Source: a virus (taxonomy: Duplodnaviria; Caudoviricetes). From it: a stretch of DNA of 58,202 bases. The position numbers and the translations under genes were made by a program. Below are positions 8,299 to 36,980 of this stretch, in pieces. Below the pieces are notes generated by a model. It was not told the DNA's origin. It did no database searches and was given only the letters and a program-made list of their open reading frames with translations. Position 1 is the stretch's first letter; each line of letters begins with the position of its first letter. The stretch spans positions 1 to 58,202 of the IMG/VR virus record IMGVR_UViG_3300023094_000011, one strand, 5' to 3'.

Positions 8299-9071
8299 AC
8301 CTTAACCTCTCCTTCGACTCCACCCGCCAGCAATACCGCGTCAAAGGCGGTCAACCCGGCGCGGGCCAATTCGTCAAGAAAACCGCCGTCCGCGATATCA
8401 TCGATGCCGACCGCGTGGCACAGAAGGAGCGGCTGGGTGGCCATAACGAGCGATTAAAACTCATGGCGCAGCGGTTCAAAGACGGGGTGCTGAGTGAAGA
8501 AGAGTTTCGCGGTGAGGTCGCAATCTGGAACCGACGCCGAAAGCGCGTCATCGCAGCGGCAAACCTCAACTACGCAGCGGCGGGGCGTGGTGGTATCGAG
8601 CAGATGGACAAGTCCGCGTATGGGCGGGCGGGTGCGACCATCAAGTTTCACTACGAAGCTTCAAATGGTTTTGCTGACGACATCATCGAGAACCCCGATA
8701 TTGTTCTGGGTACTGTGGCTGGGAAGATGGATTTTGAGAAGCGTTCCGACATGGCGGTAGATACCGCGCTGTTCTCGTTTCTGAATGAACAAGCCTTGTC
8801 GCACAGTGAGAACGGCTACACCCGATACCGCAACGTGCCGCATTCCCAGGAGTCGTGCCAGAGTTCGAAGACGAAACCAGGGTGTGACGAAATCACAGAG
8901 GTGGATTGGCAAGCTATCAACTCACTCCCTGCGCACGGCACGCGTGCCTGTGGGCCAAAGTGCGAATGTGGATGGGAGTACGACAAAGGTTCTCTGGATG
9001 AGATTGAGCCTTTCGAGTTCGTTGGAATGAAGAGTGTGAGCTTTTACGATCACGCGGCGGGACTTTACTAG
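8295..9071 (+). CDS. MuF-like minor head morphogenesis protein
   Basis: Between portal and protease; C-terminal C...C...PAHGTRACGPKCECGWEY cysteine cluster. Confidence 0.65.
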   Translation: MNLNLSFDSTRQQYRVKGGQPGAGQFVKKTAVRDIIDADRVAQKERLGGHNERLKLMAQRFKDGVLSEEEFRGEVAIWNRRRKRVIAAANLNYAAAGRGGIEQMDKSAYGRAGATIKFHYEASNGFADDIIENPDIVLGTVAGKMDFEKRSDMAVDTALFSFLNEQALSHSENGYTRYRNVPHSQESCQSSKTKPGCDEITEVDWQAINSLPAHGTRACGPKCECGWEYDKGSLDEIEPFEFVGMKSVSFYDHAAGLY

Positions 9072-9431: not shown

Positions 9432-10757
9432 ATGGATACCCTCATCGCCTTTGGCTCAGCCATCAAAACCCTGTCGGATGATGGGGATACCCTCAAAATC
9501 GGCGGGCACCTCGTGCTGTTCGGTGGCCCCGATGCCCACGACGCGACACCAAACCGGGACTACTTCACAAAGTCCACGGATTTCGACTTGCCAGCGGAAG
9601 GCGGACAGTCCACCGTCTACTACCACCACGGTCTCAACCCGGCGCTTAAAGCCCGTCCTTTGGGGCGTGCAACGCTACGGATTGACGATGCTGGTGTGTG
9701 GATGGAAGCCGAATTGAAGGCTCGTGACGCTTACGAGACGAAGATTCTGGAGATGGTCAGACGTGGGAAGCTAGGTCTGTCCAGTGGTACAGCGGTCCAT
9801 CTCGTGGAACGGGCGGCGAAGTCGAATAGCGATGGCGCCCGTGTGCATGAGATTACACGCTGGCCTCTCGGTTTGGATGCTTCGCTTACCCCGACTCCAG
9901 GTGAGCCCCGCACGATGGCTACCGCCATGAAGATGATCGGTGAGTTGGAAGGTTGGGCGGATGAATTGAACGAAGGCGAACTCAAATTCGACAAGAATCA
10001 ACCGCGTGACGATAACGGGCAGTGGACAGATGGTGGCGGTAGCGGTGGTGGCAGGCCATTCGCCCTTACGACTTCATTTCCAGGTTCTGAATACGAGCGT
10101 CAGCAGCGTGGTGAACACAAAGAGGAAATGTCGAAAGGCGACGCACAGGCAGAGCTGGCCGCCGCGAAAGAAGAGCATAGAAAGGTGCGTGAGGCAAATA
10201 AGGCACACAGGCAGAAGGTAATCCAGCTTTCACTCGATATGCGCACGGGTATAGATCGTCCAGACGGGCAAGCCATTGCCGACGAAAGCATGCGTCTGTA
10301 CAACGCAGAGAACTCCGCGAAGGCACGCCTTAGCATCGCTAAAAACCGCGTCGAACGAATGAAGGGCGAAAAGAAGTATCTAGACAATGATGAATCTGAC
10401 ACTCACGAACTTCCCCTGCTTGATGGGCTGAAGCTCGATGAACACCCCCAAAAGCTGCTTGTTGCCACAGGGGATTTAATAGATCGCTTTGACGGTTGGT
10501 TTTCAAAGCGTGCCGGTGATCGCAATGCGAATTACGTAATGCCTCAAAGCAAAATCGACAGTCTTAAAAGCCTCGCTTCCGGTTTGGAAGAACAGGCCGC
10601 AGAGGCCCGCGCGATTGCGGAGCGTTACGAGTTCAAAGGCGAAGTACAAGGTGAAGCGAAAAGCGAGGAAGAAGCGAAAGCCGATCCCGCCGACGTTTCC
10701 GCAGCAGTTACGGCCTACATTGGCCTTGAAGCCCGTTTAACCGGCGTCGCTGCATAG
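9432..10757 (+). CDS. HK97-type prohead maturation protease with internal cargo insert and scaffold-like C-terminus
   Basis: VYYHHG, DDAGVWMEAEL, GLSSGT, DASLTPTPGEPR; internal FDKNQPRDDNGQWT tag. Confidence 0.9.
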   Translation: MDTLIAFGSAIKTLSDDGDTLKIGGHLVLFGGPDAHDATPNRDYFTKSTDFDLPAEGGQSTVYYHHGLNPALKARPLGRATLRIDDAGVWMEAELKARDAYETKILEMVRRGKLGLSSGTAVHLVERAAKSNSDGARVHEITRWPLGLDASLTPTPGEPRTMATAMKMIGELEGWADELNEGELKFDKNQPRDDNGQWTDGGGSGGGRPFALTTSFPGSEYERQQRGEHKEEMSKGDAQAELAAAKEEHRKVREANKAHRQKVIQLSLDMRTGIDRPDGQAIADESMRLYNAENSAKARLSIAKNRVERMKGEKKYLDNDESDTHELPLLDGLKLDEHPQKLLVATGDLIDRFDGWFSKRAGDRNANYVMPQSKIDSLKSLASGLEEQAAEARAIAERYEFKGEVQGEAKSEEEAKADPADVSAAVTAYIGLEARLTGVAA

Positions 10758-29307: not shown

Positions 29308-31014
29308 ATGGCATATAATCTTCTCAAATTCACAAACTTCAGAGCGGTAAACCCCGACGTAGGCTACAATGCCGCCAACGGCTCGACCCTGTATGACGGG
29401 TGGGTGCAGACCCAAGGAAACGTTTACAAGGTCACGGCTGCTGATGGACTGACCAATAATGGTGGCCCTACTGCCGGAACCCCTGCCAGATCAGCCATCT
29501 CTACCGATCACCTTTTCTCCAATGGCCGCGTTACGATTCAAGCCACTGGATCGAATAATAATTTCGTTGGCCTTCGCTCAACTAGCAACGGATCAGCCAT
29601 AACCAATGCTCTGGGATTCTTTATTTTTAGCGGAAATACTATCTATAGGGCTACTATCGTAGGAGGAACTCTAACACAGAACAGCCTTGGATCATGCAAT
29701 GTCACGGGAATGGCCTTCATGAGGGTTACAGCTCAAGACGCGTCAGGCGGGACAACCGACATGACGTGTGAGTTCCTCAACTCCTCAGGGAATGTGATTG
29801 CGGGTCAAACCTATACCTACAATACAACCGCTCTCGCCGGGGCAAGTGGCTATGCCTCAACGGGAACATTTAACCTGAGCACTGCCGTTGCGAATGTCAG
29901 GATTGAAGAGTACACCCCAGGAGGCCCCATCGTGGGCGGGAGCCTAGGTTTCGAGGCCATCAGTACACCCTATTATTTCGAGGGAGCGGGCACCACGACG
30001 GCGAGCATGAGAGTCAACGGCTCAAGTGGTGGAGTTGCCACCCTGCAATATGCCTGGAAATTCCGCCCTTATGGCTCGGGCTCCTATGTCACGCAATCAA
30101 CAGGTACTCCTTCCGCTTACACCTTCACTGGACTCACAGCCGGTCAACGCTACGAAGCCTATGTCACGGTTTCGGATGGCAGCAGCACGCCCGTTGACAC
30201 GCCGATTTTCTCATTCTACACAGCAGCGGAGGTTGTGCTGTGCGTTGGAGATTCAACCACGGCCGGTGTCGGTTCAGCGGGGGGCGGCCCCTCGACTTCA
30301 TGGCCGATTTTTCTGCAAAATACCCTTGCAGCCAGCGGTTATCGCATCCTGGCTCTGAATGCGGGTGCGCCAGGCGCAACTCTCGCTAGCATGCTCGCGG
30401 GCATGATAACGGGCTCAGGCTCCTCGGCGGTTTTCAATGCGACCGTGTTGGGTCGAATCGCTACCTATGGCATCAATAAGGTTTTGATTCAGGCGGGCGC
30501 CAACAACGCGCGCAACGACACCATCGGCCTCACCAGTCGGGGCGGTACTCCCAGCACAAGCGTAGCGGCCAGCAAAGCCAGTTATAAAGCGTCACTCGTC
30601 AGTTTGAAGGCAGCGTGCGCAGCCGCTGGGGTACGGCTTGCGCTGAATTATCCGTTTTTCGTGCCCAGCGACTTAGCGAAGGGCGATGCTTTCTCAACAG
30701 GAGGATGGGAAGCCCCAGACCCTTACATCGCGGCTTATTGCGAGGCCATTGACGAAGTGCAGGACGGCACCAATGCCGGCAAACGGGTTTCTACGCCTAC
30801 CAATGGTTCCTACTCGACCTATAAGACCTATTGGACGGCGAACCCAACCGGGGGCGTGCATCCGACACCCGCCTATTATTCGCTGTACGGCAATACCTAT
30901 TTGCCCGCAGATTGGATGGCGGCGTTCAACGCTAGCGGCACAATTAAGTCCACCATCAAACCTAACCTGCGCCATCTCGGTGCTTCATTTTTGGGCTCAG
31001 GCCCCCGTCGTTAA
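29308..31014 (+). CDS. Virion-associated SGNH/GDSL esterase with FN3-like domain
   Basis: Block I VGDSTT, block II NAGAPG, block III AGANN, block V GGVHP; FTGLTAGQRYEAYV. Confidence 0.8.
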   Translation: MAYNLLKFTNFRAVNPDVGYNAANGSTLYDGWVQTQGNVYKVTAADGLTNNGGPTAGTPARSAISTDHLFSNGRVTIQATGSNNNFVGLRSTSNGSAITNALGFFIFSGNTIYRATIVGGTLTQNSLGSCNVTGMAFMRVTAQDASGGTTDMTCEFLNSSGNVIAGQTYTYNTTALAGASGYASTGTFNLSTAVANVRIEEYTPGGPIVGGSLGFEAISTPYYFEGAGTTTASMRVNGSSGGVATLQYAWKFRPYGSGSYVTQSTGTPSAYTFTGLTAGQRYEAYVTVSDGSSTPVDTPIFSFYTAAEVVLCVGDSTTAGVGSAGGGPSTSWPIFLQNTLAASGYRILALNAGAPGATLASMLAGMITGSGSSAVFNATVLGRIATYGINKVLIQAGANNARNDTIGLTSRGGTPSTSVAASKASYKASLVSLKAACAAAGVRLALNYPFFVPSDLAKGDAFSTGGWEAPDPYIAAYCEAIDEVQDGTNAGKRVSTPTNGSYSTYKTYWTANPTGGVHPTPAYYSLYGNTYLPADWMAAFNASGTIKSTIKPNLRHLGASFLGSGPRR

Positions 31015-31746: not shown

Positions 31747-32151
31747 ATGAGCAACTTTCTTTCCCCTGCGGCATCCCCCGCCGATGCTGATGCTGCATTC
31801 TTCGCGCTCGTCGAAGCGCCTTCGACTGAGGGACTCGTAACCATACAGGGCGATCTAGGTTTCTTCGCCACGCCCAGCGTCGGCAAGAACGTCTATTTCT
31901 TGCTGCAAAAGCCCATCGACGGCTCCCCAATTTTTATTGGCAACGAGTTGCAGGACCCCGATGGAAGGCTGGCGGTTGTAACTGGGAGCGATGGCACCTT
32001 CACTGTCTCGCTCCCGGTGCCGCCCTCTAACACCTACTGGCTGTGCCGCCCTTCTGGAATAACGGCCTTCGGTATCGATGTTAGTGAATCCGATATCGGG
32101 GAGACAGTGCAGTTGAGGGATATTTTAAGGGAGGTGGTGGCGACGCTTTAG
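31747..32151 (+). CDS. Hypothetical late protein
   Basis: RBS AGGAG; end of the late operon. Confidence 0.6.
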   Translation: MSNFLSPAASPADADAAFFALVEAPSTEGLVTIQGDLGFFATPSVGKNVYFLLQKPIDGSPIFIGNELQDPDGRLAVVTGSDGTFTVSLPVPPSNTYWLCRPSGITAFGIDVSESDIGETVQLRDILREVVATL

Positions 32152-32348
32152 GGCTCCTTTGGTTTTCGCCCACGCTTTTTCTGTCCCCGATCCCGTGCCA
32201 GCACGCACGCCATCTCAACGATAGCCGCGTGTCCCTCTGGCGTGTCCTCGGCTGAAATTTCGAGTTCGCCGTTTAGAGGCGGTGCATCGATATCACGGGT
32301 GTGGACGTAGAAACGTTCGTCAACATCTGTGATTACGTGGATTCTCAT
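32148..32348 (-). CDS. Small hypothetical protein
   Basis: ATGA overlap with the upstream HTH gene. Confidence 0.55.
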   Translation of the reverse strand: MRIHVITDVDERFYVHTRDIDAPPLNGELEISAEDTPEGHAAIVEMACVLARDRGQKKRGRKPKEP

Positions 32349-32554
32349 TTGACGATGATCTCAATTTGTCCGGCCATCCGCCGTAATTTCAGTTCGATCA
32401 TTTCGATTGCGAGGTCGAGGAAAGGCGGAATTTTAGCGATACCCTGCTCCCAATTGCGCAGCGTCCCGACATTGGGCAGTTTTAGGGCGGCGGCCATCTG
32501 AACCTGTGTGTAGCCAATATCATCGCGCCGTTGTTTCAGTTGTGCGGGTGTCAT
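32345..32554 (-). CDS. Xre-family HTH regulator (Aca-like)
   Basis: MTPAQLKQRRDDIGYTQVQMAAAL...TLRNWEQG. Confidence 0.85.
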   Translation of the reverse strand: MTPAQLKQRRDDIGYTQVQMAAALKLPNVGTLRNWEQGIAKIPPFLDLAIEMIELKLRRMAGQIEIIVK

Positions 32555-32559
32555 AAAAT
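32531..32559 (+). promoter_or_regulatory. Candidate sigma70 promoter for the first repeat-like units
   Basis: TTGTTT-17 bp-TAAAAT; predicted start ~32566. Confidence 0.35.
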
Positions 32560-32620
32560 GAGACTCGTATTATCTCCGCGTGTGCGGAGTGTCGTATGGT
32601 TCCACGCTTCGGCGGGGACG

Positions 32621-32658
32621 AAACAGCCCCAAGGGATTGCGCCCCTGGGGCTGTTTTT
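32621..32658. terminator. Bidirectional terminator-like hairpin
   Basis: AAACAGCCCCAAGGG-ATTGCG-CCCCTGGGGCTGTTTTT. Confidence 0.7.
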
Positions 32659-32665
32659 CTATCCT
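32637..32665 (+). promoter_or_regulatory. Candidate promoter for the three-repeat array
   Basis: TTGCGC-17 bp-TATCCT; predicted start ~32671, the first base of a repeat. Confidence 0.35.
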
Positions 32666-32819
32666 AATGAAAGTTCTTCGCAGGTGCGAAGGCGAATTGT
32701 GTCTACATCAGACATAGTGCATGTTTCCTGCGTGCGCAGGGATGAACCGGATTTTCTCTGGTTTAAACGCCATTCGCAGTAAAGTTCCCTACATATGTGG
32801 GGATGAACCCTCCGCTGCT

Positions 32820-33395
32820 TCAATTTAGAGTGCGTACGTTTTCGCTTCTCCAATAACGAATCCAGCGGTTACCGATCCACTTCCAGCCATCATCTGAGAT
32901 TTGCGTTGCAGAAAGACGCCGAAACCACTGGTTTGTCATGTCGTCAAACTGCCAGCCCTCGCCATCAGGGGACTCAATGCCGCCCGGGTCTTTTATTGCG
33001 TCAAATTGCTCCCACCAGTCACCAGAGCCTGCGCTCTTGAACGGTCCCACCTCGCGCGCCTGCCAGTAGTAGGACTCAATCCCTTCAATTTCACTCATTG
33101 CATCGTTTAACTTGTCGATTTCGAAATCATCGCAAATAAACATGAAATCGTCCCCGCCGCCAGTCACAATGGCAGTGCGGATAGTAGGTGCGGGCGACAC
33201 AAAACGGCAAACCCAAATTATCGCTTCATACGTCAGATTGCCTTCAGGGATTTCAGCTAAATAATCATCAGCGTCGAACCCCCATCCCTGGGAGCGGCGG
33301 TAATTGGCTACAATAGCACGTGCCACGCTAGGCAGTTCAGTTACGGGTGAATCGCCTTTGAACAGGATGCTGCACTCGAAATTTGAAACATTCAT
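32820..33395 (-). CDS. Acidic, Trp-rich hypothetical protein (anti-defence candidate)
   Basis: ATG 33395 with RBS GGAGA (alternative leaderless ATG 33440); first gene behind an operator-containing promoter. Confidence 0.7.
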   Translation of the reverse strand: MNVSNFECSILFKGDSPVTELPSVARAIVANYRRSQGWGFDADDYLAEIPEGNLTYEAIIWVCRFVSPAPTIRTAIVTGGGDDFMFICDDFEIDKLNDAMSEIEGIESYYWQAREVGPFKSAGSGDWWEQFDAIKDPGGIESPDGEGWQFDDMTNQWFRRLSATQISDDGWKWIGNRWIRYWRSENVRTLN

Positions 33396-33445
33396 TGTAT
33401 TATCTCCACTAACATTTTGTTCGCCATTGCGCGGCGACATAGATA

Positions 33446-33474
33446 ATTATATACACAATCTGTGTACCATGCAA
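33446..33474 (-). promoter_or_regulatory. Strong sigma70 promoter with palindromic operator in the spacer
   Basis: TTGCAT-17 bp-TATAAT; inverted repeat TACACA-N3-TGTGTA at 33452-33466. Confidence 0.8.
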
Positions 33475-33878: not shown

Positions 33879-34850
33879 TTAGTGCATCCTCTCGGCTAAA
33901 GTCTCCCCTGCCCGCGCCCACTCGACCGGCGCCTGTTTCGAGAGGTAATCTTTTTTCTGCGACACGAATTCAAAGCCCGCAATGCATATTTCAAGCTTCT
34001 CGCGGCGTAGAGGTTCCATAAGGGCGAGACACGCCGCGACTTGGGCAGTAGCGCGGGCGCGCAGCTCATCAATGGACAGCCTAGGGGCATCCTCATGGTA
34101 ATCGGCGCGCGATCCCGCATTTTGCACGTCAGGCGCTTCGACCGGCGCCGGGGCCATCGGTAACAAGCTGGGGTCTTTGAGCCGAGTAATAAGAAGCCCT
34201 ACCCCGCGAAGATTAAGCTTGTTCACAGTCTCCCACCACGCAATCACGCGCGGCACGTCCGGCCCAGCGTACTTAAGAGCATCACGCGCCGTGAGCCTCG
34301 CACCTATCAACATCTGGCGCCACTGTTCCATTTCCTCTGCGCTGCGTCCATCAATATCGGTGGCATCCAAAACGGGCGAAGAATTCGCATCTTCAACAAC
34401 GCCGTTGTCTGTTTCGTTTTGCATTGAGTCCACCTCCACTGTTTTGTGGCTCTCTTTGAGCGACGGTCCCGGCTCAGCTTTGACCGGGGATGGGGGGTCA
34501 ATTTGTTTAAAGAAATAGCCGTTTGAGGTCTGGCGCATCTTGCCGCGTTTCGTAGGTTCAAAGCGGGGATTCCATCCAACCAGTTCGGCGTCAGCGAGAG
34601 ATTTGAGGGCACGCTTCACCGTCGCCACGCTCAAGCCGGTATCGGCGGCGAGAATCTCATGCGACGGCCACGCAGTAGGGTTACGGCCCATACGGGCGAC
34701 CAGGGCGGTATAAACCTTGAAGGGGGACGGTTTGAGTTTGGCGCCGTGAGTGCGCAGCCACTGCACATTGAGGCGAATGTGCGCTTTGGTGGGGGGGGAA
34801 GGTTGAGCGGGTGTTGACGCCACAGATGGCGCTACGGTAAGATTGGACAT
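33879..34850 (-). CDS. Winged-HTH replication initiator (plasmid Rep candidate)
   Basis: FKVYTAL...AWPSHEILAADTGLSVATVKRALKSL...TSNGY (HTH_36-like). Confidence 0.75.
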   Translation of the reverse strand: MSNLTVAPSVASTPAQPSPPTKAHIRLNVQWLRTHGAKLKPSPFKVYTALVARMGRNPTAWPSHEILAADTGLSVATVKRALKSLADAELVGWNPRFEPTKRGKMRQTSNGYFFKQIDPPSPVKAEPGPSLKESHKTVEVDSMQNETDNGVVEDANSSPVLDATDIDGRSAEEMEQWRQMLIGARLTARDALKYAGPDVPRVIAWWETVNKLNLRGVGLLITRLKDPSLLPMAPAPVEAPDVQNAGSRADYHEDAPRLSIDELRARATAQVAACLALMEPLRREKLEICIAGFEFVSQKKDYLSKQAPVEWARAGETLAERMH

Positions 34851-34971
34851 AGTGGTTTTCTACGCGGGTAACCGCGTCGTTAACAGAAGGGGTCTAACTT
34901 TTGCGGGAAAGTCCCTTCAAACTGAAAGTTGTGTAAAAGCCTGTTTCCCCTGCAAGGGAAACGGGCTTTTT
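34850..34971 (+). ncRNA. Candidate antisense copy-control RNA opposite the rep leader
   Basis: Promoter TTGACG-18 bp-TAAGAT (34814-34843); terminator hairpin 34935-34971. Confidence 0.45.
34935..34971. terminator. Bidirectional terminator
   Basis: AAAAGCCTGTTTCCC-CTGCAA-GGGAAACGGGCTTTTT. Confidence 0.75.
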
Positions 34972-34987
34972 GCATTTACGGCTATTT

Positions 34988-35137
34988 CTATTGCGGCAAT
35001 TCGCTGCGAGAGATTAACCATGCGCGCCCGATTTTAGAGCCTTTTAAACGGCCCTCTCTCAACCACTTGCGAACCGTATACGGCGTGGTTTTCAAGAATT
35101 TTGCGGCTTCATCAACGGTTAAGAGTTCAGTGGTCAT
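34988..35137 (-). CDS. Xis-like HTH_17 DNA-binding protein (49 aa, not in the ORF track)
   Basis: MTTELLTVDEAAKFLKTTPYTVRKWLREGRLKGSKIGRAWLISRSELPQ; RBS GGAG. Confidence 0.85.
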   Translation of the reverse strand: MTTELLTVDEAAKFLKTTPYTVRKWLREGRLKGSKIGRAWLISRSELPQ

Positions 35138-35473
35138 TGTTACTAATCACTCCACAACGGATGATAACATTAGACAACCCTAATTGGCAAATTAGTTTTC
35201 CATGCTTGTGAATTGTCAAGTCCCACATACGCCATTCAGCGCCACTCTATCAGCACCCTACCCCTCGCTGAAAACAGGGCGAAACCCTTGATTACTTCGC
35301 TTTCATCGCGTCGAGTGAAGAAGGGTAAGCTTTTAACGCAATTTTAATACTTCTTGAAGACATTTGAGCGACAAAGCTATGCAAATCGGTGGATTAGAAA
35401 TTTCTTAGAAGTAAATTAGTGTTTTTTATTACTGTATAATCCATCACTCATTACGATTACAAAAGGAATTTCG

Positions 35474-35854
35474 ATGCGCGAGGTTGAATGCGTAGTAGCG
35501 TCATATGCACAGATGCGGGATTCCTTGGAATCTGCAATTGATTCTGCAATGGTCGCAGAGTTTTACGAGTGGGTTTCGTCGTCACATGAACAGGCTGAAC
35601 ATCAGCTAACCCTGTTGCGTGCCCAGCGGAATCTCCTTTTTCAGCAGCTTTCGGTACGTAACGAATGCCCCTCCAGTGAGGCGTGGTTGAACGTGAATGC
35701 CCTGATCGGGTGGGCAGAAGAAAGGCACGCGATGTTCGATGGTTACGCCTATGAAATCACGAGCCTCGATAAAGAAACGCTCGATTTAGATCATCCTGGC
35801 GCGGCTTCATTGTGGTTGCGATTTTTGGCTAGTAAGGTTATTTTGCGGGACTAG
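35474..35854 (+). CDS. Hypothetical protein
   Basis: RBS AAGGA; TGTATAAT upstream (~35433-35440). Confidence 0.6.
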   Translation: MREVECVVASYAQMRDSLESAIDSAMVAEFYEWVSSSHEQAEHQLTLLRAQRNLLFQQLSVRNECPSSEAWLNVNALIGWAEERHAMFDGYAYEITSLDKETLDLDHPGAASLWLRFLASKVILRD

Positions 35855-36980
35855 CCGACTCGGTAGTGAAGCGGGCTTTGATCTCCGCAAGTCGTGCTTC
35901 GATGCGTCCGATCCGCGTCACGAAAGCCTCCTTAACGAGTGGGTTGGTGTGGCGATGTTCGAGGATATACGGGACTTGGTTCTCAGTTATCCCTATAAGG
36001 CGCTCGATGGTGTCCAGGCTATGAGTCATGGACTGAGCATCATAAGTGGGCTCTTCTGGAAAATCCCATTGCAGCTTTTCGAGTTCCTCCTTATCGCGTC
36101 GGTCTGCTTCTAGTTCCCGCTCCGTCGATTCTAGTAAATCGTCGATGCTGGGCGGCGTGGATGGTTCAAACGAGCGGCGTGGTTCTTCAGGCGGCGGCGT
36201 GGGTTCCGGTTCTGGTTGCGCTGCTGGGCGCGGCAAAAGCATTTTGATAGCTCCGACACTGGCGCCGCTTTTGACAGCCTGAATCATCTCTTTGCGGACC
36301 GCTTTACTAGCTACGCCCTGAATAATTTCAACGTGAGTCAAAACGTCGTTGAACAGTTGGAACAATTCCACTAATTCAGGATCGTCTTTGATTTTCTTCC
36401 ACACTCGGTAACGGTCCCCTACCCAGGCGGCATTACCCTTTGCGAATTTTTTGAACTGGTTGTCTGCCAGGAATTTTTGAGACCGGCCAAATTCATCAAT
36501 ATAACGAGCGATAGAGCGACAAATCGCGGACAACGACATGAACTCATGTTCGATGTTCTGGGCGTTCTGAATGTCTAAAACCTTCTCTCGGTTTGTGACG
36601 TTTTTTACTTCAACATCAGCACGTTCCCATCCCAAATCCTTAATAGCCCAGTAGCGAATCTCCCCATCGATAAGCTGATGGTCCACACCGTTTCGCACTT
36701 CATCAGGGGTGCGCGCTGCCATTTCGTCAGGCCACAGCGGGCGCACCTTGAAGGGGTCAAGCTGCCCATCTTTAAGGATGCTTTCCTTCCGACTTTCAAT
36801 AGCATCTGGCGGGAAATAATCACGCGGCTGCTCGGCGTCGGGCCTGATGCGCGACATGAGCATGGATTGTGTCACACGCGGGGACGCGCCATTGATTGCC
36901 TGATCCGCCGCGTCCAACGCTGCCACGTTTCCAGGGCGATGCCCGCCACTATGACGCGGGCCGTAATTTGTCTGTGCCAT
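35838..36980 (-). CDS. parB: ParB-family partition protein
   Basis: IRPDAEQPRDYF, SILKDGQLDP, LIDGEIRYWA, QNIEH; directly downstream of parA. Confidence 0.85.
   Translation of the reverse strand: MAQTNYGPRHSGGHRPGNVAALDAADQAINGASPRVTQSMLMSRIRPDAEQPRDYFPPDAIESRKESILKDGQLDPFKVRPLWPDEMAARTPDEVRNGVDHQLIDGEIRYWAIKDLGWERADVEVKNVTNREKVLDIQNAQNIEHEFMSLSAICRSIARYIDEFGRSQKFLADNQFKKFAKGNAAWVGDRYRVWKKIKDDPELVELFQLFNDVLTHVEIIQGVASKAVRKEMIQAVKSGASVGAIKMLLPRPAAQPEPEPTPPPEEPRRSFEPSTPPSIDDLLESTERELEADRRDKEELEKLQWDFPEEPTYDAQSMTHSLDTIERLIGITENQVPYILEHRHTNPLVKEAFVTRIGRIEARLAEIKARFTTESASPAK

What the first reader, a model, noticed from the sequence alone, without database searches (positions are those of the whole stretch)
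32569..32810. Cas-less cluster of five divergent type I-E CRISPR-repeat mimics: candidate RNA anti-CRISPR or Cascade-hijacking mini-array
Seen: five units share the I-E geometry (5 nt, 6-bp stem, 4-nt loop, 6-bp stem, 8-nt handle). They are ATTAT-CTCCGC-GTGT-GCGGAG (~32569), TGGTT-CCACGC-TTCG-GCGGGG-ACGAAACA (32597), AAGTT-CTTCGC-AGGT-GCGAAG-GCGAATTG (32671), ATGTT-TCCTGC-GTGC-GCAGGG-ATGAACCG (32721) and AAGTT-CCCTAC-ATAT-GTGGGG-ATGAACCC (32782). Stem sequences differ but pairing is largely kept, which suggests selection on RNA structure. The last two units flank a canonical 32-nt spacer (61-nt period); the preceding spacer is only 21 nt. Two candidate plus-strand promoters place starts at unit boundaries (~32566, ~32671), with a terminator between the groups. 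No cas genes are present. Known: I-E repeats look like GTGTTCCCCGCGCCAGCGGGGATAAACCG; phages use solitary repeats as RNA anti-CRISPRs (Racr) and mini-arrays against competitors; short spacers give binding without cleavage. Inference: a multi-variant decoy or guide cassette, possibly covering several Cas6e specificities, mixing aberrant units with one full-length guide.
Basis: partly seen in the sequence, partly recalled or inferred. Interest (0 to 1): 0.92.

Follow-up and report, generated by a model that had tools for sequence, protein, structure and literature searches.

The report
Phage-borne type I-E CRISPR RNA mimic cassette
A complete 58-kb phage with no cas genes carries a tiny type I-E CRISPR array plus three decayed repeat-like hairpins, most likely RNAs that exploit or jam the host's CRISPR proteins; this is a further example of a phage counter-defence described in 2023-2026, not a new kind.

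Summary
Units 4 and 5 (32721-32749, 32782-32810, + strand) are genuine type I-E repeats 61 nt apart around a 32-nt spacer. Covariance models built from natural repeats score them at E 1e-6 to 1e-10. Unit 4 is 28/28 identical to a repeat copy in a Burkholderiales MAG array. A second model, built only from degenerate repeats of other phages and of host cas8e-upstream mini-arrays, ranks the five units as its five best hits in the window. Units 2 and 3 score marginally (E about 0.06, + strand). Unit 1 scores better on the minus strand. A strong plus-strand terminator hairpin separates units 1-2 from units 3-5. The proposed promoters are weak. The phage lacks cas6e, cas7e, cas8e and cas1.

Neither the 32-nt spacer nor the 21-nt spacer-like stretch found a target. 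The host is unknown, no close relative of the phage was found, and no RNA data exist.

The layout (degenerate repeat, 21 nt, repeat, 32 nt, repeat) recurs in other IMG/VR phages. It fits published viral mini-arrays, Racrs and Cracr arrays. This scan has already filed comparable cases in other genomes. Verdict: new member of a known kind, moderate interest.

The parts
32569..32596 (.). Unit 1: perfect 6-4-6 hairpin CTCCGC-GTGT-GCGGAG. Its orientation is ambiguous.
   Evidence: isolated fold -10.2 kcal/mol, 0 of 200 shuffles as good. R2 scores 14.7 bits on the minus strand against 10.0 on the + strand. It lies 15-35 nt upstream of the HTH gene start.
32597..32625 (+). Unit 2: degenerate I-E repeat-like unit with one A/G mismatch in the stem, a UUCG loop and the 3' handle ACGAAACA (5/8 to ATGAACCG).
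   Evidence: R2 14.3 bits, E 0.066, full length. Not listed by R1.
32621..32662 (+). Intrinsic-terminator-like hairpin (15-nt arms, 93% complementary) followed by a T-run on the + strand.
   Evidence: the repeat finder I2. It forms in the folds. The scan did not flag it (one internal mismatch in the stem).
32671..32699 (+). Unit 3: degenerate repeat with the fully paired stem CTTCGC/GCGAAG and the poor 3' handle GCGAATTG (4/8).
   Evidence: R2 14.5 bits, E 0.057, full length. On the minus strand the same hairpin plus a T-rich tail was flagged as terminator-like.
32700..32720 (+). 21-nt spacer-like stretch (psiS). It contains a TGTCT-N5-AGACA inverted repeat.
   Evidence: No target above shuffled controls in the phage or in 30 cas8e loci.
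32721..32749 (+). Unit 4: near-canonical I-E repeat with the handle ATGAACCG.
   Evidence: R1 42.4 bits, E 4.5e-10. 28/28 identical to a repeat copy in G001 contig C117.
32750..32781 (+). 32-nt spacer (S), canonical length.
   Evidence: 0 exact hits in IMG/VR and in the metagenome contigs. Only chance-level hits in the phage and plasmid collections.
32782..32810 (+). Unit 5: near-canonical I-E repeat with a G-U pair in the stem and the handle ATGAACCC.
   Evidence: R1 29.3 bits, E 3.4e-6. R2 31.1 bits. Its 26-nt core is 1 nt from natural repeats in L126 and L139.
32531..32559 (+). Putative promoter P1: TTGTTT, 17 nt, TAAAAT. It would start RNA near 32566.
   Evidence: Read. 8/12 consensus matches, below the threshold. 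Inference only.
32637..32665 (+). Putative promoter P2: TTGCGC, 17 nt, TATCCT. It would start RNA near unit 3.
   Evidence: Read. 7/12 matches, not flagged. Weak inference.
32345..32554 (-). 69-aa HTH protein (aca-like position), downstream of the cassette on the opposite strand.
   Evidence: Pfam HTH_3 E 0.0067, below the cut-off. PHROG transcriptional repressor E 8.5e-5.
32820..33395 (-). 191-aa orphan protein (206 aa from the first ATG), first gene of the minus-strand operon.
   Evidence: Only itself among 5.8 billion proteins. No Pfam, PHROG or NCBIfam family. Atlas model pLDDT 0.42.
33446..33474 (-). Operon promoter: TTGCAT, 17 nt, TATAAT, with the palindrome TACACA-N3-TGTGTA in the spacer.
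   Evidence: The palindrome is unique in the window at up to 2 mismatches.

Best explanation
This is a cas-less, phage-encoded type I-E crRNA-mimic cassette that acts through the host's own Cas6e and Cascade.

Shown:
- There are two near-canonical I-E repeats around one 32-nt spacer.
- They are preceded, on the same strand, by a degenerate repeat with a 21-nt spacer-like stretch.
- Upstream lies a separate block of one or two degenerate hairpins that ends in a terminator.
- The cassette lies antisense inside an operon (orphan protein, HTH, small ORF) whose promoter carries a palindromic operator.

Inferred mechanism:
- The + strand is transcribed.
- Host Cas6e binds and cuts each hairpin and stays bound to its product.
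- One transcript then yields one well-formed 61-nt crRNA: handle AUGAACCG, 32-nt guide, unit 5 hairpin.
- It also yields several defective species with poor 5' handles (GCGAAUUG, ACGAAACA), a short guide or no 3' hairpin. These would tie up Cas6e and Cas7e without making competent Cascade.
- The net effect is counter-defence. The phage RNAs compete with the host's phage-targeting crRNAs.
- The well-formed guide may also redirect Cascade to a target the phage chooses: a host cas or toxin promoter as in Cracrs, or a rival element.
For: Repeat identity, strand and period.

Degenerate units are recognised by an independent model, and they cluster.

The + strand fold is stronger than the minus strand fold (z -5.65 against -4.32). 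The G-U pairs of units 4 and 5 exist only in + strand RNA.

The putative 97-nt RNA covering units 1-2 and the terminator folds as three hairpins, z -5.89.

This is not a fresh capture of a host array. Units 4 and 5 differ at 9/29 positions, against 0-3 in 2207 adjacent pairs of natural arrays.

The same architecture occurs in other phages:
- L074 has spacers of 21 and 32 nt.
- L111 has 21, 21 and 20 nt, and L010 has 20, 20 and 20 nt, both with non-identical repeats.

Host I-E loci carry a degenerate repeat, a 23-33-nt spacer-like stretch and a second repeat upstream of cas8e. I read a PAM-flanked partial target beside those of G001 and L257.

Published function of such RNAs:
- Racrs, including RacrIE1 and RacrIE2; a non-targeting crRNA also lowers interference (PMC10651486, passages read).
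- I-E Cracr arrays with 21-24-nt spacers, often beside acr genes (bioRxiv 10.1101/2024.10.29.618823, sections 7 and 8 read).

Context:
- HTH gene and operator-bearing promoter.
- ParB and Rep suggest a plasmid-like prophage that would need lasting protection.
Against: - The proposed promoters are weak.
- The host is unknown. The portal protein matched 0 of 401 Burkholderiales genomes searched at E<=1e-20.
- No target was found for S or psiS.
- Of 2447 spacers from natural arrays of this repeat type, none matches the phage beyond 16 nt, so pressure from I-E systems is not shown.
- Natural cas8e-upstream mini-arrays keep the ATGAACCG handle in their first repeat. Units 2 and 3 do not, so a guide role for psiS is doubtful.
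- Units 2 and 3 fail the strict model R1.
- Among 5 phages found through TerL, none shows a convincing I-E repeat. The only complete one has none.
- The 191-aa neighbour has no link to any known Acr.
Confidence: 0.5

Rival explanations
1. The cassette is an inter-element weapon. The one canonical crRNA (32-nt spacer) arms the host's Cascade-Cas3 against a competing phage or plasmid (superinfection exclusion). The upstream units are decayed older repeats with little function.
For: The spacer has the canonical 32-nt length, a perfect 8-nt handle upstream and a good hairpin downstream. Viral mini-arrays whose spacers target other viruses are stated in PMC10120712 (passage read) and in PMC6858448 (title and start of the abstract from the search listing only). 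The phage has plasmid-like maintenance genes and so may reside long-term in its host.
Against: The spacer has no protospacer: 0 exact hits in IMG/VR and in the metagenome contigs, and only chance hits in the phage and plasmid collections. The degenerate units sit on the 5' (leader) side. My recalled knowledge is that arrays usually decay at the trailer end. The upstream units keep paired stems, which plain decay would not do.
Confidence: 0.22
2. Only units 4-5 and the spacer are CRISPR-derived. Units 1-3 and the large hairpin are ordinary regulatory elements of the minus-strand operon: a terminator or attenuator after the 191-aa gene, a 5'-UTR structure, or an operator before the HTH gene. This rival concerns the observation and can be combined with either functional reading.
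For: R1 does not list units 2 and 3. Unit 1 scores better on the minus strand. Unit 3's hairpin plus T-rich tail is flagged as a minus-strand terminator-like site. Unit 2 has a UUCG loop and, in context, an extended stem that buries the would-be cleavage site. The R2 E-values are individually only about 0.05-0.07.
Against: The three units are ranks 3-5 of the R2 hits in 116 kb and lie within 160 nt of ranks 1-2. Units 2 and 3 carry GTT and GAA flanks in the + orientation. The 21-nt spacing before a good repeat recurs in other phage arrays and resembles the layout of host mini-arrays.
Confidence: 0.3
3. The cassette is a non-functional relic of a past recombination with a host CRISPR array and is drifting neutrally.
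For: No target, no host and no conservation in the few distant relatives.
Against: Units 4 and 5 differ at 9/29 positions yet both keep full pairing and near-perfect handles. This evidence is weakened because I found them with a pattern that demands those features. The clean two-unit organisation with a terminator and the position in a regulated accessory operon also argue against drift.
Confidence: 0.1

Closest known systems
[quoted passage not shown]
   Same: Phage-borne, cas-less and type I-E. Several non-identical repeat-like units in one array. A 21-nt spacer-like stretch (theirs are 24 and 21 nt). One unit is likely to be poorly processed. Neighbouring genes are candidate anti-defence genes.
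   Different: The defining match of a spacer to a host CreR or cas promoter was not found here. This cassette also has a full 32-nt spacer, a much more degenerate first repeat whose handle is not conserved, and a separate upstream hairpin-plus-terminator block.
Racrs, solitary-repeat RNA anti-CRISPRs including RacrIE1 and RacrIE2 (Camara-Wilpert et al., Nature 2023, PMC10651486; abstract and passages read)
   Same: CRISPR-repeat mimicry by a phage without cas genes, in an intergenic region near candidate anti-defence genes. Units 1-2 plus the terminator look like a small stand-alone repeat RNA. The expected mechanism is competition for Cas6 and Cas7.
   Different: The units are not solitary. 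The paper's SRUFinder pipeline discards repeats that have partial repeats within 100 bp and files such pairs as mini-arrays. Promoter evidence here is weak, whereas RacrIF1 has a strong promoter.
Virus-borne mini-CRISPR arrays used in inter-viral conflicts (Medvedeva et al., PMC6858448, title and start of the abstract from a search listing only; viral mini-arrays as summarised in PMC10120712, passages read)
   Same: Two repeats and one canonical-length spacer on a virus without cas genes.
   Different: Those spacers match related viruses. This spacer matches nothing I could search. The repeats here are unusually unlike each other.
Host regulatory mini-arrays (CreR-type) upstream of cas8e in I-E loci (Shmakov et al., PMC10120712, passages read; examples seen here in G001, L256, L257, L258 and L270)
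   Same: The layout of a degenerate repeat, a short spacer-like stretch and a better repeat. Stems change while staying paired.
   Different: The host elements lie inside cas loci and keep the ATGAACCG handle on the first repeat. For G001 and L257 I read a PAM-flanked partial target nearby. The phage's unit 3 has a poor handle and no identified target.

Membership tests
Type I-E CRISPR repeat / viral mini-array | Repeat sequence and hairpin match natural I-E repeats | tested here: met
   Units 4 and 5 score 42.4 and 29.3 bits with R1. Unit 4 is 28/28 identical to a natural repeat copy. 36 of 49 genomes holding such arrays carry cas8e.
Type I-E CRISPR repeat / viral mini-array | Regular repeat-spacer period with a spacer of about 32 nt | tested here: met
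   61-nt period and a 32-nt spacer between units 4 and 5.
Type I-E CRISPR repeat / viral mini-array | Located on a virus with no cas genes of its own | tested here: met
   Complete virus record with direct terminal repeats. No cas6e, cas7e, cas8e or cas1. Other cas families were not searched.
Racr (solitary repeat unit RNA anti-CRISPR) | Repeat is solitary, with no full or partial repeat within 100 bp | tested here: not met
   Five units lie within 242 nt. By the SRUFinder rules quoted in PMC10651486 this would be filed as an array or mini-array.
Racr (solitary repeat unit RNA anti-CRISPR) | Expressed from its own promoter as a small RNA that binds Cas proteins and inhibits interference | not testable with these tools
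   Promoter candidates match only 7-8 of 12 positions. No RNA run is listed.
Cracr array | Spacer-like stretch matches a host CreR/CreA spacer or a cas/creT promoter (at least 9 PAM-proximal bp) | tested here: inconclusive
   No match above shuffled guides in 30 cas8e loci (261,192 bases, both strands). The true host is unknown, so the relevant promoter was probably not among them.
Cracr array | Array of repeat-like units with short (about 21-24 nt) spacer-like stretches on a phage or plasmid | tested here: met
   A 21-nt stretch lies between units 3 and 4. Comparable phage arrays: L010, L074, L111.
acr-aca operon (context) | HTH regulator downstream of candidate acr genes, with an inverted-repeat operator in the operon promoter | tested here: inconclusive
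   The HTH signal is weak. The palindrome in the promoter spacer is present and unique in the window. The 191-aa protein has no relatives and no confident fold.

The most novel reading that the evidence does not exclude
One cassette combines three I-E RNA counter-defence modes: a Racr-like decoy ending in a terminator, a short-spacer crRNA-like RNA and a full guide. Each repeat copies a different natural I-E repeat variant, so the cassette works across hosts with diverged Cas6e/Cascade. Its output is gated by convergent transcription from the operator-controlled operon it sits in. Unit 1, read on the minus strand, could additionally be a Cas6e site in the leader of the HTH gene.
Probability: 0.12. 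Interest if true: 0.6.

Novelty: new member of a known kind. Interest (0 to 1): 0.36.

Why it matters
The case adds a clean example from a complete uncultured leaf-litter phage to the recently described class of RNA anti-CRISPRs and viral crRNA-like arrays.

Three features could inform how such arrays evolve and are expressed:
- The repeats are very unlike each other, and each is close to a different natural variant.
- A terminator splits the cassette into two parts.
- The cassette lies antisense inside an HTH-controlled operon.

If function were shown, the cassette would be a compact tool for probing Cas6e and Cascade loading. It does not open a new principle.

Tried and rejected
Rfam: no CRISPR family hit in 32000-33400 at E<=10.

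Relatives of the phage:
- No DNA match in the phage collection and none among 111 IMG/VR loci.
- The 206-aa and 323-aa proteins found no relative in IMG/VR. The 69-aa HTH found one 38% match.
- The 191-aa protein has only itself among 5.8 billion proteins.
- TerL found 5 loci at 32-74% identity. Only weak R1 hits appeared in those records, one of them inside the TerL gene.

Host:
- TerL is closest to phages of Limnohabitans, Bordetella and Acidovorax, at 44-47% identity.
- The portal protein matched 0 of 401 Burkholderiales genomes.
- Neither the 2447 spacers from the fetched arrays nor 12 spacers from G001 match the phage beyond chance.

Targets: see the best explanation. All searches were negative.

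Expression: no RNA holder is listed. The only run holding the DNA is the probable source sample. Its contig covers the stretch without differences, so it gave no variant information.

Neighbours of comparable arrays in L010, L027, L074 and L111: 9 of 10 ORFs have no Pfam family; one is a weak tail-tube hit.

The 21-nt inverted repeat between the unit 3 handle plus psiS and the spacer (76% complementary) scores no better than shuffled guides as a self-target. I rejected it as chance.

Supplementary tables of Liu et al. and of Camara-Wilpert et al. list IMG/VR candidates. They may already include this record, and I could not open them.

Full report
WHAT IS THERE

The window is a complete virus record of 58,202 bases with direct terminal repeats. 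It has a plus-strand structural module that ends at 32151. The next three genes run on the minus strand:
- a 191/206-aa orphan (32820-33440);
- a 69-aa HTH protein (32345-32554);
- a 66-aa ORF (32148-32348).

The finding fills the 265-nt gap between the orphan and the HTH gene. All five units are at the stated places with the stated sequences.

UNITS 4 AND 5 ARE REAL TYPE I-E REPEATS

- They match a I-E pattern on the + strand only: 2 forward, 0 reverse, 0 for the reversed control.
- They are 61 nt apart around a 32-nt spacer.
- The same pattern finds 111 stretches in IMG/VR, among them long arrays.
- Of 49 such genomes, 36 carry cas8e.
- Model R1, built from 51 distinct natural repeats, scores unit 4 at 42.4 bits (E 4.5e-10) and unit 5 at 29.3 bits (E 3.4e-6).
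- Unit 4 is 28/28 identical to one repeat copy in a Burkholderiales MAG, G001.
- The 26-nt core of unit 5 is 1 nt from the repeats of two other MAGs, L126 and L139.
- The two units differ from each other at 9 of 29 positions. Adjacent repeats in natural arrays differ by 0-3 (2207 pairs). No pair in any class exceeds 5 (2439 pairs).

This is therefore not a freshly captured piece of a host array.

UNITS 1-3

R1 does not list units 2 and 3 at E<=10, and gives unit 1's hairpin about 10 bits on either strand.

I then built model R2 from 38 degenerate repeats taken from other phage arrays and from host mini-arrays upstream of cas8e, none from this window. Its five best hits in the whole window, both strands, are the five units:

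| Unit | Bits | E-value | Strand |
|---|---|---|---|
| 5 | 31.1 | 4.6e-7 | + |
| 4 | 29.5 | 1.5e-6 | + |
| 1 | 14.7 | 0.051 | minus |
| 3 | 14.5 | 0.057 | +, full length |
| 2 | 14.3 | 0.066 | +, full length |

The next hit elsewhere scores 13.7 bits.

Each of the three scores is marginal alone. Three such hits within 160 nt of the two strong ones are not chance. Simple counts agree:
- The motif GTT, hairpin, NN, GAA occurs 5 times in both strands, 4 of them here.
- Fully paired hairpins of the Y..YRC/GYR..R type occur 9 times on the + strand, 4 of them here.

Unit 1 is the weakest case, and its orientation is open (10.0 bits on the + strand).

- The hairpin 32621-32656 with a T-run is there and forms in every fold. 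The consensus scan missed it because of one internal mismatch.
- The proposed promoters are TTGTTT-17-TAAAAT and TTGCGC-17-TATCCT. They match 8/12 and 7/12 positions, by my reading, and are below the scan's threshold.
- The + strand RNA folds better than the minus strand: z -5.65 against -4.32.
- The phage has no cas6e, cas7e, cas8e or cas1.

SURROUNDINGS

- The minus-strand operon has a promoter TTGCAT-17-TATAAT with a perfect palindrome in its spacer. The palindrome is unique in the window.
- The HTH call is weak but consistent.
- The first gene is an orphan with no confident fold.
- ParB and a Rep-like protein lie nearby.
- The arrangement looks like an anti-defence (acr-aca-like) operon in a plasmid-like prophage. 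Earlier notes on this window suggested this. The Acr identity is not shown.

COMPARISON WITH OTHER ELEMENTS

Other IMG/VR phages carry I-E arrays of non-identical repeats with short spacers:
- L111: 21, 21 and 20 nt.
- L010: 20, 20 and 20 nt.
- L074: 21 then 32 nt, the same pattern as here.
- In all, 11 of 88 clusters of 2-6 units in the 111 loci have a 5-27-nt spacer. Some of these may be noise.

Host I-E loci carry a degenerate repeat, a 23-33-nt spacer-like stretch and a second repeat upstream of cas8e.
- Their first repeat changes its stem but keeps the ATGAACCG handle.
- Their second repeat keeps the hairpin.
- I read a PAM-flanked partial target beside those of G001 and L257.
- These host elements score only 10-22 bits with R1, so failing R1 does not exclude function.

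In the phage, the handles of unit 3 (GCGAATTG, 4/8) and unit 2 (ACGAAACA, 5/8) are poor. The RNAs they would head are more likely defective than guiding.

WHAT I COULD NOT FIND

- No target for the 32-nt spacer or the 21-nt stretch.
- No host.
- No natural array with unit 3's stem.
- No close relative of the phage, and no convincing I-E repeat in 5 phages found through TerL.
- No RNA data.
- The only run holding the DNA is the probable source. It confirms the sequence in a second assembly of the same data.

HOW IT MOST LIKELY WORKS

Confidence is about 0.5. The steps below are inferred unless marked.
- The + strand is transcribed.
- Host Cas6e binds and cuts each hairpin. That Cas6e stays bound to its product is recalled knowledge of I-E biology.
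- One transcript yields one canonical 61-nt crRNA and several defective species. The defective species tie up Cas6e and Cas7e.
- This competes with the host's own crRNAs, as shown for Racrs and for a non-targeting crRNA (PMC10651486, passages read).
- The canonical guide may repress a host promoter, as I-E Cracr arrays do (bioRxiv 10.1101/2024.10.29.618823, sections 7 and 8 read), or attack a rival element.

Rivals:
- A weapon against competing elements (0.22).
- A relic (0.10).
- Independently of function, the view that units 1-3 are ordinary operon signals (0.30).

NOVELTY

- Racrs, I-E Cracr arrays with 21-24-nt spacers, and viral mini-arrays are in print.
- A word search of this scan's notes returned 21 findings in at least 20 genomes; the 8 shown are phage or prophage CRISPR-repeat mimics or short-spacer arrays.
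- The defining Cracr test (a spacer match to a cas promoter) is inconclusive here. The defining Racr feature (a solitary repeat) is not met.
- I file this as a new member of the broader known kind, viral crRNA-mimic mini-arrays. Its unusual features are the very unlike repeats, the terminator-split design and the antisense position in an HTH-controlled operon.
- Interest is moderate.

Noticed in passing
window 33446-33474 (minus strand) and 32148-33440: Operon of a 191-aa orphan, a 69-aa HTH and a 66-aa ORF. Its promoter is TTGCAT-17-TATAAT, and the spacer holds a perfect TACACA-N3-TGTGTA palindrome that is unique in the window. The layout is acr-aca-like, but the first protein has no relatives.
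   Followed up: partly
window 32569-32589, minus strand: Unit 1 scores better as a repeat-like hairpin on the minus strand (14.7 against 10.0 bits). There it would sit in the leader of the HTH gene, followed by ATAATACG and then the start codon region. It is a possible Cas6e site on the operon mRNA.
   Followed up: no
window 32700-32714: The 21-nt spacer-like stretch contains a 5-bp inverted repeat, TGTCT-N5-AGACA. It could be a protein-binding site rather than a guide.
   Followed up: no
L248 (G001 contig C477), about 7000-7200, between a minus-strand ORF that follows cas3 and cas8e: A Burkholderiales MAG with the same repeat as unit 4 has a mini-array on the strand opposite to cas8e: a degenerate repeat, a 23-nt spacer-like stretch and a second repeat. 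An ATG-flanked partial match to that stretch lies next to the cas8e start.
   Followed up: partly
L111 (array at about 2820-3060) and L010 (about 8200-8375): IMG/VR phage contigs with four or five non-identical I-E repeats separated by 20-22-nt stretches. Within each array the stretches resemble one another. This looks like multiplexed Cracr-type arrays.
   Followed up: partly
L074, about 9564-9703: A 66-kb IMG/VR phage has a cassette of a degenerate repeat (stem CACCAC/GTGGTG, intact handle), 21 nt, a canonical repeat, 32 nt and a decayed repeat. The spacer-length pattern is the same as in this window.
   Followed up: partly
window 33879-36980: A Rep-like HTH protein (HTH_36, RP-C) and a ParB-like protein lie next to the cassette. 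This suggests a plasmid-like prophage.
   Followed up: no
window 29308-31014: A 568-aa protein at the end of the structural module carries a GDSL lipase/acylhydrolase domain. It may be a tail-associated deacetylase or esterase.
   Followed up: no
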